Below are positions 47,490-60,512 of a stretch of DNA of 64,000 nt, in pieces (within the stretch, counting starts at the first letter, position 1; each line of letters begins with the position of its first letter). Source of the DNA: a virus. Lineage: Duplodnaviria; Caudoviricetes. Under the pieces are notes generated by a model. That model did no database searches. It was not told the DNA's origin and saw nothing but the letters and a program-made list of their open reading frames with translations. Position numbers and translations under genes: made by a program. Location of the stretch: IMG/VR virus record IMGVR_UViG_3300009370_000001; one strand, given 5' to 3'.

Positions 47490-47765
47490 ATGGCTATGGA
47501 TTCCGATTCTTCTGGTATACGGTTTCATCTTTGGAGCCAGCTACCTTCTAACCTCGTGGATGGTCTAATGAGCCCAGGCAACCTTGTAATGATTAAGCGT
47601 GCTGCTATCGGCGTGCCTGCTGGCACCCTCGCACTATGCTTGAAGCGCGACGAGAAGCGCGGAGATTATGACGAAGGCCATGAGATTTGGACAGTCCAGC
47701 TTATGCATGGGCAGCTACGGGGCATTGAGCGCCGGTATCTTGATATTGATTTGGAGATATTGTGA
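47490..47765 (+). CDS. SH3/KOW-like family protein
   Basis: PGNLVMI...YLDIDLEIL; start placed downstream of the promoter. Confidence 0.5.
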   Translation: MAMDSDSSGIRFHLWSQLPSNLVDGLMSPGNLVMIKRAAIGVPAGTLALCLKRDEKRGDYDEGHEIWTVQLMHGQLRGIERRYLDIDLEIL

Positions 47766-47965
47766 AAGTCGGTGACTTGGTAAAGAGCGCAGATCGTTTA
47801 GTTGGCAATCGGAATCGCATGCGCCTGGGAGTGATCGTAGAGGTAGACCCCGATAAAGCCGATCAACCGGGTTGTTTCGGGAGTTGTTTTATCCAGTGGA
47901 TAGGCGATGCAGATTGGACATTCGTGTACGAAGAAGATATTGAGGTAATCAATGAAGGTCGGTGA
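47762..47965 (+). CDS. MKVGDLV-family small SH3/KOW-like protein
   Basis: MKVGDLVKS...GVIVEV...IQW...EDIEVINEGR. Confidence 0.7.
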   Translation: MKVGDLVKSADRLVGNRNRMRLGVIVEVDPDKADQPGCFGSCFIQWIGDADWTFVYEEDIEVINEGR

Positions 47966-48140
47966 TTTAGTAAGAAACCTTAACTCGGAAAGCGGTCTGC
48001 TTGGCGTTATTGTTTACTGGACAGATACCAAATGGCCCGACAACAATCAATGTACGAACCATCCAGTCGTACACTGGAACGACGGGCGCACAAGTTGGAT
48101 TATGGCGCATCGTGTGGAGATTATAAATGCAAATCGGTGA
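47952..48140 (+). CDS. MKVGDLV-family small SH3/KOW-like protein
   Basis: MKVGDLVRN...GVIV...VVHW...VEIINANR. Confidence 0.7.
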   Translation: MKVGDLVRNLNSESGLLGVIVYWTDTKWPDNNQCTNHPVVHWNDGRTSWIMAHRVEIINANR

Positions 48141-48351
48141 CATTGTAAGGGTACATTGGGGCGCATGCGACTGGTCCGGCACGGAAGGTGTTGACTGGGG
48201 ATATGGCGTTGGCGTTGTGACGGGCGATATTGTGTGGTGGGAGAACACACGGCGTCTTGTGTCTCCGTGCGGCGACGTAGAGATTCTATTTCGCGGCGAG
48301 CGCGTAAACTATAACCTTGGTCGGCTGGAGATTGTAAATGAAAGTCGGTGA
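48127..48351 (+). CDS. MKVGDLV-family small SH3/KOW-like protein
   Basis: MQIGDIVRV...GVV...LEIVNESR. Confidence 0.7.
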   Translation: MQIGDIVRVHWGACDWSGTEGVDWGYGVGVVTGDIVWWENTRRLVSPCGDVEILFRGERVNYNLGRLEIVNESR

Positions 48352-48520
48352 CTTGGTGAGATATAAAGATTCACTCCGCGATGACGTGGGAGTTGTAATG
48401 AAAATACAAACCGAGGGATCGTGTTCAATCTTTGGTCACACAGTGATCGTACAGACAACCGATGGGATTTGCCGTCAATATACCGAAAAGAATCTGGAGA
48501 TTTTAAATGCAAGTCGGTGA
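48338..48520 (+). CDS. MKVGDLV-family small SH3/KOW-like protein
   Basis: MKVGDLVRY...GVVMKI...LEILNASR. Confidence 0.7.
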   Translation: MKVGDLVRYKDSLRDDVGVVMKIQTEGSCSIFGHTVIVQTTDGICRQYTEKNLEILNASR

Positions 48521-48695
48521 CTTGGTAAAGATTGTGCAGTCAGCAATAGATCCGCTCAAGACTCCATTTTTGGAACAGGTCGGTGTGATTGTTAGAAAGA
48601 CTACACTTGAATCAGAACAAAACGATTGGTATGATGTATTAACGCGGGATAGGATTCACTCATTCCGCGCAGACTATTTGGAGAAGATAAAATGA
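48507..48695 (+). CDS. MKVGDLV-family small SH3/KOW-like protein
   Basis: MQVGDLVKI...GVIV...YDVL...YLEKIK. Confidence 0.7.
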   Translation: MQVGDLVKIVQSAIDPLKTPFLEQVGVIVRKTTLESEQNDWYDVLTRDRIHSFRADYLEKIK

Positions 48696-48955
48696 AAGCA
48701 GGAGATTTAGTAACACTTTCGGCGTATGCGAATGGGCTTCAAGCCCTCCAGCGGTGGTCAGACCGCTTCCGCCAATACCATAAAAAGCAGCCCCTGGTGG
48801 GATTGGTGATTAAAATCTCCCCGTCTCGGTGGGCGTGGGAAGGGATGCAGTATGAAGTACGATGGATGGAGCCGCATGGGCCGAAAGGTCGGGAGGGTAA
48901 CTACGGCGTACACACATTCAACCGCAAAGATTTGAAGTTTGTGAGTCGAGGATAG
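48692..48955 (+). CDS. MKVGDLV-family small SH3/KOW-like protein
   Basis: MKAGDLVTL...GLVIKI...YEVRW...DLKFV. Confidence 0.7.
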   Translation: MKAGDLVTLSAYANGLQALQRWSDRFRQYHKKQPLVGLVIKISPSRWAWEGMQYEVRWMEPHGPKGREGNYGVHTFNRKDLKFVSRG

Positions 48956-49332
48956 TGGAAAATCTCACTCCAGAAAATTTTTTCCTGGTATTCCAGGTAT
49001 TTATCAAAGTTTTAGTTATATGGAGTCCCGTATTGTTTGGGACGTGGCTTTATATGTATTACACGCGCCCTAAAAAGCGCACAACCCAACGCAACAAAGG
49101 AAAGAAGATAATGAGAGCAGGCGAAGTATTTGAATGGCTGGATCAGGGACCAGCGGTATTGTTGGCACCATGTAAGATTGCCGATCCTATTCCCGTAGAA
49201 AAGAAGACCGAGTTTCTAAAAGATCCCGAAGGATTCTTGAAGGCATGGCCCAGCGAACAAGGCTGGACTATTAAACTTCTGGAAAGCGGCGACATCATCG
49301 ACGTGCATGAAGACACGTTGACATACTCTTGA
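48955..49332 (+). CDS. Membrane-anchored protein with C-terminal SH3-like domain
   Basis: N-terminal TM, then MRAGEVFEW; stop inside the promoter element. Confidence 0.5.
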   Translation: MENLTPENFFLVFQVFIKVLVIWSPVLFGTWLYMYYTRPKKRTTQRNKGKKIMRAGEVFEWLDQGPAVLLAPCKIADPIPVEKKTEFLKDPEGFLKAWPSEQGWTIKLLESGDIIDVHEDTLTYS

Positions 49333-58929: not shown

Positions 58930-58980
58930 CACACACTTGACAACCTAAACCTTGACAGTCACCCCGAAAAGTGCTATATT
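58926..58980 (+). promoter_or_regulatory. Repeated early promoter element
   Basis: TTGACA-5-TTGACA-9-TTGACA-17-TATATT. Confidence 0.9.
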
Positions 58981-59003
58981 GTATGCATACAACGGAGAGA
59001 ACT

Positions 59004-59674
59004 ATGACCACTTTGCCCCTTGAATCCGCCGCATATGCCTGTGAGGGCGTTATTACCGCTGTCGCAGTCCTGTCGCAAGTGCTGGAAGTCCAGCGCGTTG
59101 CGCCTGAAGACCCGCAGACCCCTGACGCAGTTAATCTGCTGTTGGAAGCCTATGCACTCGCATGCGTTGGTAGCGGCTGCGTAGCGGAGGCTTAGAATGA
59201 CTATTAAAGTTGTACGCGAGAACCGCAACCCCCGAGATCATCAGATCCGAGTGGGTGATCTGATTCGGATCGTTAATCACGATCCAACAATGTCGATCCC
59301 CCTGGCGGCTGTCCCGCACACTCTCGGCCTTGTCACAGAAATGGGAGAACCGGCGACGTGCCCCGACTACGTGATCGCTGTCTTCCCGCACCTGGGCGAG
59401 ACAGTCGTATACGAAGACGAATGGGAAGTGATTAGTGTTTGACGTGGGAACCATTGTATCAGTTATTTCGACCGACCAGCCACTTAAAGGGATCGTCGTG
59501 CCGAATGGTTTTGATCCACCCGTGCATATCAACGCGGATCTTAAGACTCCGCCCTATCCGTGGGATGATCTTCCCGGTGTATCAATGGTGCTGATTACAA
59601 GTAGCGGAGAGTATCAAGGAAAAGTGTATCCCTTTCAGAAGCATCAACTGGAGATTATAAGTGACTCAAGTTAA
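59004..59674 (+). other. Three small genes (59004-59195; 59197-59442 IRVGDLI; 59435-59674 MFDVGTIV)
   Basis: Last two have SH3/KOW-like starts and end EVISV / EIISDSS. Confidence 0.55.
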
Positions 59675-59972
59675 AGTCAGTATCCCGCCCGCGCTGTTCA
59701 CAGCCCCGAGCGGTCAACGCTATGCGGTTGCAGGCTCACAGTGGATTCGTGTGCCCCTGGACACGACTCACGCGACCCTTGACCAGTTTGTGAGCTACTC
59801 GCCGCCAGAAGTCCAGCAGGACGACAATAATGGATCGTGGCAAGTGCAAGGCTCCAAGGGCAACACTTATACTGTGCGCGTTCGCGCCGGTCAGTGGTTC
59901 TGCTCCTGTCCTGGCTATGGCTTTCGGCGCAAGTGCCGACACATCGAGGAGACAAGAAATGCAAATCGGTGA
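59661..59972 (+). CDS. SWIM zinc-finger protein
   Basis: GSKGNTYTV...WFCSCPGYGFRRKCRHI (CxC...CxH). Confidence 0.8.
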   Translation: MTQVKVSIPPALFTAPSGQRYAVAGSQWIRVPLDTTHATLDQFVSYSPPEVQQDDNNGSWQVQGSKGNTYTVRVRAGQWFCSCPGYGFRRKCRHIEETRNANR

Positions 59973-60168
59973 TTTGATTCGTTTTGTTAATACGGGTTGT
60001 CATGGCGTGGTTCTGTCCGTCCGTCCGTCCCGCCACCACATCGATCCCGACTGGATTTATGTCTTGTGCGGTCCTGATGCTGATGGCCACCGGGCAACAG
60101 GCGAACCTACGGCTTTTCCCAGGGACTACCTCGCAAGAGTGTCGGAGGTTATAAATGCAAGTCGGTGA
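59959..60168 (+). CDS. MKVGDLV-family small SH3/KOW-like protein
   Basis: MQIGDLIRF...GVVL...EVINASR; true ATG 59959. Confidence 0.7.
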   Translation: MQIGDLIRFVNTGCHGVVLSVRPSRHHIDPDWIYVLCGPDADGHRATGEPTAFPRDYLARVSEVINASR

Positions 60169-60343
60169 TCTCGTAGTGTTTAGGGATGACCGGGTGCCTG
60201 GAGTGATTGTAGCAGAAAGGCGCGACGATCCGCTCCCCAAGAAACTCCGTGTGGGTGTATTGTGGATCGATTGTAATGATGTGTCGTGGGAGCCAATCCA
60301 ATACTTGCGAGTGATAAGCGAGACAGATAATGAAAATCGGTGA
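60155..60343 (+). CDS. MKVGDLV-family small SH3/KOW-like protein
   Basis: MQVGDLVVF...GVIV...VLW...LRVISETDNENR. Confidence 0.7.
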   Translation: MQVGDLVVFRDDRVPGVIVAERRDDPLPKKLRVGVLWIDCNDVSWEPIQYLRVISETDNENR

Positions 60344-60512
60344 TCTAATAACATTTCAGATTGACTATGATTCAGAGTGTATTGAAGATATAGGGATTGT
60401 CACAGAAATAGAACCGACTCTTGGTTATGCCATAATCGCATGGCCGTGGGGACAGGGGCGACACCGCACATGCGGGTTGCATATATTAAGCGAGAACGGA
60501 GAACAAGAATGA
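60330..60512 (+). CDS. MKVGDLV-family small SH3/KOW-like protein
   Basis: MKIGDLITF...GIVTEI...IAW...LHILSE. Confidence 0.7.
   Translation: MKIGDLITFQIDYDSECIEDIGIVTEIEPTLGYAIIAWPWGQGRHRTCGLHILSENGEQE

What the first reader, a model, noticed from the sequence alone, without database searches (positions are those of the whole stretch)
47490..60512. Tandem arrays of hypervariable MKVGDLV (SH3/KOW-like) mini-proteins
Seen: 13 close members (47762, 47952, 48127, 48338, 48507, 48692, 50281, 50486, 50810, 53146, 59959, 60155, 60330) and about 15 looser ones across 33-63 kb. All are 60-90 aa with (K/Q)(V/I)GD(L/I)V, a G-(V/I/L)-(V/I) strand, an aromatic strand and a final L-E-(V/I)-(I/V) strand, but with unrelated loop sequences. 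Similar SH3 modules also end larger proteins (48955, 53734, 57553). Inference: a fixed beta-barrel scaffold with diversified loops, i.e. a library of binders against host proteins or defence sensors, expressed early.
Basis: partly seen in the sequence, partly recalled or inferred. Interest (0 to 1): 0.85.

Follow-up and report, generated by a model that had tools for sequence, protein, structure and literature searches.

The report
Expanded SH3-like mini-protein cassettes in marine phage
An uncultured ~200-kb marine phage carries about two dozen very different copies of one tiny beta-barrel protein, encoded as overlapping gene cassettes behind host-type promoters and gained or lost between close relatives by recombination at shared regulatory repeats; what the proteins bind is unknown.

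Summary
All 13 listed genes and 6 more (43921, 44842, 46162, 59197, 62177, 62433) match one profile. Four divergent ones (44475, 47451 C-half, 49486, 55932) join by profile-profile comparison. All lie on the + strand within 43.9-62.7 kb. AlphaFold gives a confident five-strand SH3/Tudor/KOW-like barrel. Strands are conserved; loops vary in sequence and length.

The family is in no curated library, yet matches 1,912 clusters of unnamed metagenomic proteins. Complete ~190-205-kb marine phage relatives hold 11-18 copies in one segment.

"Hypervariable" needs correcting. Paralogues are old (under 40% identity). Orthologues are under purifying selection (dN/dS 0.26 strands, 0.35 loops). Variation is in which cassettes are present. 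Eight of ten indels between close relatives break at one of two repeats: a 14-nt dual-coding junction (upstream tail and stop = next gene's Shine-Dalgarno and start; 255 true junctions) or a ~55-nt multi-TTGACA promoter cassette. This resembles T4-type hyperplastic regions.

Early expression is inferred from 15 near-consensus sigma-70 promoters. The role as binders of host or defence proteins is untested. The C-terminal module claim holds at fold level only, for 57523.

Other first-stage notes flagged this same stretch of this genome; none concerned other DNA.

The parts
43921..44202 (+). family member (93 aa, domain from 43960)
   Evidence: HMM E 6e-15; 89% orthologue in L081
44475..44825 (+). 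divergent member (116 aa)
   Evidence: hhalign 89%, E 2e-6
44842..45111 (+). family member (89 aa)
   Evidence: HMM E 2e-17
46162..46386 (+). family member (74 aa), behind promoter at 46145
   Evidence: HMM E 8e-20; close database relative P0006
47444..47472 (+). sigma-70-type promoter heading the 47451-49332 overlapping-gene string
   Evidence: 10 of 12 consensus with extended -10 TG
47451..47765 (+). divergent member (barrel in C-terminal half, 47568-47762)
   Evidence: hhalign 94%, E 1.4e-7
47762..47965 (+). family member (67 aa); the one folded
   Evidence: HMM E 6e-20; AlphaFold pLDDT 85, five strands
47952..48140 (+). family member (62 aa); 14-nt overlap with previous gene
48127..48351 (+). 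family member (74 aa); 14-nt overlap
48338..48520 (+). family member (60 aa); absent from close relative L081
48507..48695 (+). family member (62 aa); absent from L081
48692..48955 (+). family member (87 aa, basic, long first loop)
49486..49707 (+). divergent member (73 aa)
   Evidence: hhalign 94%, E 1.3e-7
50281..50502 (+). family member (domain from 50299; true start uncertain)
   Evidence: absent from L081
50486..50734 (+). family member (82 aa)
   Evidence: 78% orthologue in L081
50810..51019 (+). family member (69 aa, basic)
   Evidence: absent from L081
53146..53355 (+). family member (69 aa); L081 has five extra cassettes just upstream of its orthologue
55932..56141 (+). divergent member between the ATPase and the vWA gene (69 aa), widely conserved
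   Evidence: hhalign 87%; found in 45 of 80 loci
59197..59442 (+). family member (81 aa, domain from 59245)
59959..60168 (+). family member (69 aa); same 14-nt junction with the upstream SWIM zinc-finger gene
60155..60343 (+). family member (62 aa); 14-nt overlap
60330..60512 (+). family member (60 aa); 14-nt overlap
62177..62461 (+). family member (domain from 62255)
   Evidence: deep profile E 3.5e-12
62433..62651 (+). family member (72 aa)
   Evidence: deep profile E 7.6e-9
48338..48351 (+). example of the 14-nt dual-coding junction (ATG..GGTGA: start of one gene, tail and TGA stop of the previous one)
58952..58980 (+). sigma-70-type promoter (TTGACA-17-TATATT with TG) upstream of the 59-60.5 kb string
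51042..51070 (+). sigma-70-type promoter; one of 15 near-consensus + strand sites between 45.1 and 59 kb

Best explanation
This is a lineage-specific, greatly expanded family of stand-alone small beta-barrel (SH3/Tudor/KOW-like) proteins of 55-95 residues. It sits in the accessory, host-promoter-driven (probably early) region of an uncultured clade of ~190-205-kb marine phages.

The genes are organised as cassettes in short operons. Each operon starts at a strong sigma-70-type promoter. Within an operon, neighbouring genes overlap by 14 nt, so that the last strand and tail of one protein (L-E-V-I-N/S-x-x-R-stop) is the same DNA as the Shine-Dalgarno site and the M-K/Q-V-G-D start of the next. 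This couples their translation.

The junction and a ~55-nt multi-TTGACA promoter cassette are short conserved repeats. Unequal or homologous recombination at these repeats adds, deletes and probably swaps cassettes between related phages, so each phage holds its own subset of a very large pool.

Each paralogue is old and is kept by purifying selection. It has its own loops and its own net charge on a common core.

Inferred, not shown: each cassette is a small binding module with its own macromolecular target (a host protein, or for the basic ones perhaps nucleic acid), used in host takeover or counter-defence. Structure, organisation and evolutionary dynamics are shown here; expression timing and function are inference.
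For: Family and chance: 15 of 15 motif hits on the + strand; 19 HMM members plus 4 by hhalign, with control genes below 1%.

Fold: AlphaFold pLDDT 85 with five strands. Foldseek returns Tudor, KOW (eS4, Spt5, Kin17), PWWP, YorP and HspQ at TM 0.6-0.68. The profile's best solved-structure hit is the NusG KOW domain, E 1e-3.

Real genes: dN/dS 0.26-0.35 over 208 orthologous pairs; 1,912 clusters at 50% identity in 1.8 billion proteins.

Clade-wide: 497 copies in 80 related loci, all co-directional with the ATPase; 11-18 copies per complete genome, clustered in one segment.

Diversity and turnover: 287 clusters at 50% identity among 488 copies, and no window paralogue pair detectable by BLASTP. 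In L081 (ATPase 95% identical) 4 of 13 cassettes are absent and at least 5 others are present.

Junction: motif 438 times on the + strand against 1 on the - strand; 255 true overlaps; GGAGGT consensus upstream. Synonymous imprint: GGT at G4 is 100% with overlap and 57% without, against 25-29% at the control Gly.

Recombination: 5 of 10 indels break in the junction and start segment, and 3 of 10 in the promoter cassette.

Promoters: 15 sites at 10 of 12 or better on the + strand; 31 against 3 in the window, 301 against 11 in relatives, 17 of 31 within 44-60 kb.

Heterogeneous surfaces: pI 4.3-10.8, 42% acidic and 30% basic.

Context: a homologue of the anti-CBASS enzyme Acb5 lies about 4 kb upstream of the first cassette.
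Against: No binding partner, no expression data and no host are known. No RNA run holds the stretch, and the one complex prediction gave no verdict.

Early timing rests only on promoter consensus.

Other small accessory genes in the same region are about as divergent between close relatives, so rapid turnover may be a property of the region rather than of this family.

Only one member was folded.

Conserved charged residues (K2, D5, E62) could mark a common functional face, which would argue for one shared partner rather than many; part of that conservation is explained by dual coding.

Two of the ten indels have no identified repeat.
Confidence: 0.6

Rival explanations
1. The proteins are RNA- or DNA-binding regulators, like KOW or LSm domains. 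[quoted passage not shown]
For: The best sequence-level matches are the KOW domains of NusG and uL24. The fold class includes many RNA binders. 30% of copies are basic, with pI above 8.5. T4 precedent in PMC12152347.
Against: 42% of copies are acidic, with net charge down to -9, which fits nucleic-acid binding poorly. No conserved basic patch exists; the conserved residues are core residues or are dual-coded. Pfam KOW is not matched by any member. Even for T4 GoF the wild-type protein showed no RNA effect.
Confidence: 0.2
2. They are adaptors or co-factors of the co-located MoxR AAA+ ATPase and vWA-metallopeptidase pair. A conserved face would dock on the machine and the variable loops would pick different clients, as the small barrel HspQ does for Lon.
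For: In complete genomes nearly all copies cluster around the ATPase. One divergent member (55932) lies between the ATPase and vWA genes and is widely conserved. The next gene (57523) ends in a similar barrel. HspQ appears among the fold hits. K2, D5 and E62 are conserved.
Against: Co-location may only reflect a shared early or accessory region. The jumbo-phage literature assigns this MoxR-vWA pair to virion assembly (PMC7824862). Cassette content varies freely while the ATPase stays 95-97% identical. No interaction was tested.
Confidence: 0.08
3. This is a hypervariable binder library: loops under diversifying selection or targeted mutagenesis in an arms race.
For: Loops are unrelated between paralogues. 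dN/dS is higher than in core genes: 0.13-0.6 against 0.04-0.14 in the L001 comparison.
Against: Pooled loop dN/dS is 0.35, only slightly above the 0.26 for strands. No gene reached 1. Paralogues differ along their whole length rather than in one variable patch, so there is no sign of a template and variable-repeat pair as in diversity-generating retroelements.
Confidence: 0.05
4. Neighbouring, translationally coupled members assemble into a hetero-oligomer, for example an Sm-like ring.
For: Tight translational coupling usually serves stoichiometric production. Many small barrels oligomerise.
Against: Close relatives lack or add members within the same string, which does not fit a fixed-subunit assembly. 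The pair prediction gave no support, though that counts neither way.
Confidence: 0.04
5. The cassettes have no specific function. They would be a by-product of recombination-prone junction repeats that multiply whatever lies between them.
For: The recombination-prone repeats are documented. Most members have orthologues in only a few relatives.
Against: Purifying selection acts on both strands and loops. Individual paralogues persist across phages whose ATPases are only 60-80% identical. The scaffold is kept across 1,912 clusters.
Confidence: 0.03

Closest known systems
Hyperplastic regions of T4-type phages with PeSL regulatory cassettes (Arbiol et al. 2010, PMC2839356; Comeau et al. 2014, PMC4122927)
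   Same: Regions packed with small accessory genes and repeated strong sigma-70-like promoters. Insertions, deletions and replacements between close relatives break at the repeated regulatory motifs.
   Different: Here a second recombination substrate lies inside the coding sequence, the 14-nt dual-coding junction plus the conserved start segment. The cargo is dominated by one protein family. A promoter-adjacent stem-loop terminator is not generally present. The phage is not T4-like: it uses a DnaE-type polymerase.
[quoted passage not shown]
   Same: Non-essential early phage proteins built on a five-strand SH3-topology barrel. They are paralogues with no BLAST-detectable similarity to each other, and their function is unknown.
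   Different: T4 has three copies, each with an extra C-terminal domain (~120-140 aa). Here there are about 23 single-domain copies per genome in overlapping strings. No sequence relation was shown.
KOW domains of NusG/Spt5 and ribosomal protein uL24
   Same: Same barrel. The N-terminal half (K-V-G-D-x-V ... G-x-V) aligns to the KOW motif; best solved-structure match E 1e-3.
   Different: No member reaches any Pfam KOW score. These are stand-alone proteins with long variable loops and mixed charge.
SH3/Tudor-like small-barrel clusters of phage proteomes (Viral AlphaFold Database, PMC12487901) and Pfam DUF1918
   Same: Small SH3/Tudor-like barrels are reported as the largest bacterial-virus-only structural clusters. 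Distant tandem-repeat relatives of this family hit DUF1918 at 3.6e-16.
   Different: The window members match neither DUF1918 nor any other curated model. The per-genome expansion and the cassette architecture were not described in the papers read here.
Lineage-specific expansions in jumbo phages, e.g. about 35 Zn-ribbon copies in Bacillus phage G (PMC7824862)
   Same: Tens of copies of one small domain in a single large phage genome, with function unknown.
   Different: Different fold. The passage read here does not mention a junction or recombination architecture for that expansion.

Membership tests
SH3-like small beta-barrel fold (Tudor/KOW/chromo-like superfold) | Five antiparallel strands forming a small closed barrel of ~60 residues | tested here: met
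   AlphaFold pLDDT 85 with strands 6-9, 22-29, 41-46, 52-56, 60-64. Foldseek probability 1.0 and TM 0.6-0.68 to Tudor, KOW, PWWP, YorP and HspQ. One member folded; the rest inferred from profile homology.
KOW domain (Pfam PF00467) | Sequence match to the KOW motif above the curated threshold | tested here: not met
   No Pfam KOW hit for any of 17 members, even at E up to 1. There is only a borderline profile match to the NusG KOW domain (E 1e-3, domain E 0.02-0.05).
DUF1918 (Pfam PF08940) | Score above the gathering threshold (24 bits) | tested here: not met
   0 of 17 window members. A distant 370-aa tandem-repeat relative does hit at 59 bits.
LSm/Hfq-like proteins (including the T4 GoF family) | Sm-type barrel, usually with an N-terminal helix, assembling into rings; the T4 family has an added C-terminal domain | tested here: not met
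   The model has no N-terminal helix and the proteins have no extra domain. Oligomerisation is not established; the pair prediction gave no verdict.
Tudor 'royal family' readers | Aromatic cage formed by conserved aromatic residues | not tested
   Only one aromatic position is conserved (Trp in strand 3, 59%). Cage geometry was not examined.
PeSL-type hyperplastic region (T4-type phages) | Repeated strong sigma-70-like promoters among small accessory genes | tested here: met
   15 sites at 10 of 12 or better on the + strand; 31 against 3 by strand in the window; 301 against 11 in relatives.
PeSL-type hyperplastic region (T4-type phages) | Stem-loop terminator joined to each promoter | tested here: not met
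   Terminator-like sites are not above shuffled expectation (23 found against 16.7 +/- 4.2). Only the promoter at 57496 overlaps a strong stem-loop.
PeSL-type hyperplastic region (T4-type phages) | Indels between close relatives break at the repeated regulatory motifs | tested here: met
   8 of 10 indels: 5 at the junction and start segment, 3 at the multi-TTGACA promoter cassette.
Diversity-generating (hypermutated) binder loci | Near-identical template and variable repeats, with variation confined to one patch | tested here: not met
   Paralogues are 19-38% identical over their whole length, with no BLASTP hit between them. Loop dN/dS is 0.35. A reverse transcriptase was not searched for genome-wide.

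The most novel reading that the evidence does not exclude
The conserved dual-coding junction (Shine-Dalgarno, start and stop in one ~25-nt block) and the promoter cassette together act as a plug-and-play exchange system. Any cassette bounded by these repeats could be excised, duplicated or swapped between co-infecting phages while arriving already wired for transcription and coupled translation. The ocean-wide pool of at least 1,900 barrel variants would then work as a shared, combinatorial toolbox of host-targeting binders, an integron-like logic achieved without an integrase.
Probability: 0.3. Interest if true: 0.8.

Novelty: new variant of a known kind. Interest (0 to 1): 0.6.

Why it matters
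Small SH3/Tudor-like barrels are reported as the largest structural group of phage-only proteins, and almost none has a known function. This clade concentrates about two dozen per genome in a defined, probably early, region. It offers hundreds of natural variants on one scaffold and clear orthologue sets, which makes it a convenient system for asking what such proteins bind.

The junction shows how a protein motif, a ribosome-binding site, a start codon and a stop codon can be one piece of DNA that also serves as a recombination site. That extends the idea of regulatory-cassette-mediated gene shuffling, known from T4-type phages, to an unrelated marine phage lineage and into coding sequence.

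The scaffold, with loops tolerating 0-45 residues, may also interest protein engineers.

Tried and rejected
- **Curated libraries.** Pfam, PHROGs and NCBIfam scans of the members gave no meaningful hit.
- **Deposited phages.** Megablast of the region and tblastn of one member found nothing. The polymerase and ATPase have only distant relatives at 24-33% identity.
- **Whole genome.** None is held for the window.
- **Host inference from MAG labels.** Rejected. Arrays sit on single contigs of bins with inconsistent taxonomy. The WOR-3 'chromosome' has clade genes scattered over 2 Mb, as a concatenated bin would.
- **Expression.** No RNA run holds the stretch, so this says nothing either way.
- **Complex prediction on neighbours 47952 and 48127.** No verdict (score 0.00); not evidence for or against binding.
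- **Protein atlas.** Hits (R67-type DHFR, DsrB, DUF3104, DUF1918, KOW) all scored below 0.9 and are leads only.
- **Homology of the C-termini of 48955, 53734 and 57523 to the family.** Not supported by hhalign.
- **45746, 51407 and the 62756 C-terminus as members.** Not supported.
- **Strict ATG-only junction motif.** It under-counted junction-associated indels, because variants with a GTG start exist.

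
Full report
**1. What the window is**

All large ORFs are on the + strand. They include a DnaB-like helicase, a ribonucleotide reductase, a DnaE-type DNA polymerase and a GroEL. Further along lie a MoxR-type AAA+ ATPase (54847) and a metallopeptidase-vWA protein (56218).

No deposited phage is close. Megablast finds nothing, and the polymerase and ATPase reach only 24-33% identity. No whole genome is held.

The ATPase recovers 249 related viral contigs. Five of them are judged 100% complete at 187-206 kb, and one has terminal repeats.

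The DNA occurs only in marine or seawater metagenomes. Database entries that appear to be the window's own lie on a 203,698-bp contig (this is an inference).

The window is therefore part of an uncultured ~200-kb marine phage. Its host is unknown.

**2. The observation**

The motif [KQRA]xGD[LIV][VI] occurs 15 times. All hits are on the + strand, all at ORF N-termini, all within 44.8-60.5 kb, and none is on the other strand.

A deeper profile built from relatives adds 62177 and 62433.

Profile-profile comparison, using each candidate's own orthologues, supports four more:
- 47451 C-terminal half: 94%
- 49486: 94%
- 44475: 89%
- 55932: 87%

59435 is marginal at 57%. Four control genes score below 1%.

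That gives about 23-24 members between 43.9 and 62.7 kb. No member lies between 33 and 43.9 kb.

**3. Fold and family signature**

With the 17 paralogues as alignment, AlphaFold gives pLDDT 85 and five strands for the 47762 protein.

Foldseek returns SH3-like small barrels at TM 0.6-0.68:
- PHF1 and TDRD3 Tudor domains
- KOW domains of eS4, Spt5 and Kin17
- PWWP domains
- the SPbeta prophage protein YorP
- HspQ

The best viral matches are runs of unnamed proteins with consecutive accessions. The profile's best solved-structure hits are the KOW domains of NusG (E 1e-3) and uL24.

No member matches any Pfam, PHROG or NCBIfam model.

Over 287 non-redundant copies the signature is M-[KQ]-V-G-D-L-V-[KR] ... 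G-[IV]-[VI] ... V-x-W-x-x-D-G ... L-E-V-I-[SN]-E. Strands carry 1.65 bits per column and loops 0.65. Loop lengths range over 3-31, 0-45 and 0-37 residues.

Net charge is very mixed: pI 4.3-10.8, with 42% acidic and 30% basic.

The description "fixed scaffold, unrelated loops" is correct.

**4. Larger proteins**

The 57523 protein (alignment A4) folds at pLDDT 90.6. It has a helical N-terminal part and a C-terminal five-strand unit with the same strand pattern as the mini-proteins. Homology to the family is not detectable (hhalign 2%).

The C-termini of 48955 and 53734 have no profile support and were not folded.

**5. Spread**

A profile search of 1.84 billion representatives finds 1,912 clusters at E of 1e-3 or better. 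Nearly all are single-domain proteins of 50-80 aa, and all are unnamed metagenomic hypotheticals.

A few are tandem fusions of 3-5 copies, which hit DUF1918. One has repeats fused to an ADP-ribosyltransferase domain.

In 80 related loci there are 497 copies, all co-directional with the ATPase, at 0-18 per locus. Complete genomes hold 11-18 copies, almost all in one 15-30-kb segment.

Arrays also occur on MAG contigs with inconsistent labels, most simply explained as mis-binned phage contigs. One is a 306-kb contig with a distant ATPase (39%) and GroEL (38%).

**6. Is it hypervariable?**

Paralogues within the window are 19-38% identical. No pair is found by BLASTP at E below 1e-3, and 488 copies fall into 287 clusters at 50% identity.

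Orthologues, however, are conserved.

Against L001 (ATPase 97% identical):
- Core genes: dN/dS 0.04-0.14.
- Mini-genes: dN/dS 0.13-0.6, with dS ranging from 0.25 to 1.2. That indicates a mosaic history, and nothing exceeds 1.

Pooled over 208 unsaturated orthologous pairs, dN/dS is 0.26 for strand codons and 0.35 for loop codons.

Against L081 (ATPase 95% identical), retained family orthologues are 49-89% identical. This overlaps the 49-97% range of other small genes in the region.

What differs between relatives is which cassettes are present:
- L081 lacks 48338, 48507, 50281 and 50810.
- L081 has about five extra cassettes upstream of the 53146 orthologue.

The loops are therefore maintained, not diversified. 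The variability is in the repertoire.

**7. Gene organisation**

Seven window junctions share a 14-nt overlap. The upstream tail (E-V/I-I-N-x-x-R-stop) and the next gene's M-K/Q-V/I-G-D are the same DNA. The SWIM-finger gene at 59661 uses the same junction.

Across the window and 84 loci, the junction motif occurs 438 times on the + strand and once on the - strand. Of these, 255 have ORFs of at least 45 codons on both sides. A GGAGGT consensus lies at -11 to -6, and it is encoded by the L-E-V strand of the upstream gene.

Synonymous sites carry the imprint:
- The Gly of G-D is GGT in 100% of overlapped genes and 57% of non-overlapped genes.
- The internal invariant Gly is GGT in only 25-29%.
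- The preceding Val is GTC in 61% of overlapped genes and 32% of the others.

Part of the protein-level conservation at both termini is therefore dual coding.

**8. Promoters**

Fifteen + strand sites between 45.1 and 59 kb match TTGACA-17-TATATT at 10 of 12 or better, mostly with an extended -10 TG.

At up to two mismatches the window has 31 sites on the + strand and 3 on the - strand. Seventeen of the 31 lie in 44-60 kb. The relatives have 301 against 11.

This is the pattern expected for genes read by the host polymerase, so early expression is plausible. No RNA data exist.

**9. How cassettes come and go**

Both indels between the window and L081 break inside the shared junction and start segment.

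Among eight further indels between close relatives:
- Three more are at junction variants, two of them with GTG starts.
- Three are at a ~55-nt repeated multi-TTGACA promoter cassette.
- Two are unresolved.

So 8 of 10 break at one of the two conserved regulatory repeats.

This closely parallels PeSL-mediated modular shuffling in the hyperplastic regions of T4-type phages (PMC2839356). There are two differences. One of the repeats here lies within coding sequence, and stem-loop terminators are not a regular part of the promoter cassette.

**10. Function**

Nothing here shows what the proteins do.

The mixed charge, the absence of a conserved surface beyond core and dual-coded residues, paralogue-specific purifying selection, the accessory-region context and a nearby Acb5-like counter-defence gene favour a set of small binding modules with different targets in host takeover or counter-defence.

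Three rivals remain possible:
- KOW/LSm-like nucleic-acid binding; the published T4 GoF family is the closest protein analogue.
- Adaptors for the neighbouring MoxR-vWA module, which the jumbo-phage literature links to virion assembly.
- Hetero-oligomers of coupled neighbours. The one pair tested by complex prediction gave no verdict.

**11. Novelty**

Three elements are already known in general terms:
- Small SH3/Tudor-like barrels are the commonest phage-only fold.
- Lineage-specific expansions of small domains occur in jumbo phages.
- Promoter-cassette shuffling occurs in T4-type phages.

Three elements are new here:
- this uncurated family and its scale;
- its confinement to one region of an uncultured marine clade;
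- the dual-coding junction that serves both as a translational coupler and as a recombination site.

I rate this a new variant of a known kind.

Other first-stage notes (e1-5378468, e1-5378483, e1-5378498) flagged the same stretch of this same genome. Their junction and promoter leads were tested here and hold.

Noticed in passing
window 39909-40259 (+): The 116-aa protein is 97% identical to an L081 gene whose precomputed Pfam hit is Acb5 (PF26761), an experimentally shown cGAMP-cleaving anti-CBASS enzyme family. The local Pfam copy did not report the hit.
   Followed up: partly
window 45160-45247, 46623-46698, 47151-47226 (+): Three tRNA genes (Leu-TAA, Ile-TAT, Lys-TTT) lie interspersed among the cassettes. 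All read A/T-ending codons.
   Followed up: no
window 54847-57474 (+): MoxR-type AAA+ ATPase followed by a DUF2201 metallopeptidase-vWA protein. This pair has been described for some jumbo phages. It is highly conserved (dN/dS 0.04-0.08) while the flanks turn over.
   Followed up: partly
window 53734-54522 (+): 262-aa protein with two CCHC zinc-knuckle-like motifs upstream of the ATPase, found in 55 of 80 relatives but fast-evolving (73% identity against 97% for the ATPase in L001).
   Followed up: no
window 57523-58362 (+): Conserved 279-aa protein. The AlphaFold model (pLDDT 90.6) has a long helical N-terminal part and a C-terminal SH3-like barrel. No Pfam match; function unknown.
   Followed up: partly
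window 45108-45151 and 54762-54805; L003:9896-9951; L032:14834-14888: A promoter cassette of about 55 nt with two or three TTGACA-like boxes spaced 11-15 nt apart ahead of one extended -10 box. It is repeated in relatives and flanks three indels.
   Followed up: partly
window 52001-60000: G+C rises to 0.52-0.54 against about 0.45 elsewhere in the window. The rise coincides with the MoxR-vWA module.
   Followed up: no
L103 / G006 (record CP070664.1, labelled WOR-3 chromosome): Genes of this phage clade are scattered over 2 Mb of the record: ATPase (67%) at 0.60 Mb, GroEL (62%) at 0.21 Mb, and arrays at 1.26, 2.08 and 2.14 Mb. The record is probably a concatenated bin containing phage contigs.
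   Followed up: partly
proteins P0001, P0013, P0052 (database relatives): Natural fusions exist: 3-5 tandem copies of the barrel in one protein, and one 760-aa protein with about five repeats followed by an ADP-ribosyltransferase domain. This suggests the barrel can serve as a targeting module.
   Followed up: no
window 31701-33275, 38895-39674, 43644-43889, 50000-50287 (+): Phage-encoded GroEL, a trypsin-like peptidase and a glutaredoxin, plus a weak sub-threshold match (E 0.005, below Pfam's cut-off) to the PRA-PH pyrophosphohydrolase family at 50000, lie around and among the cassettes.
   Followed up: no
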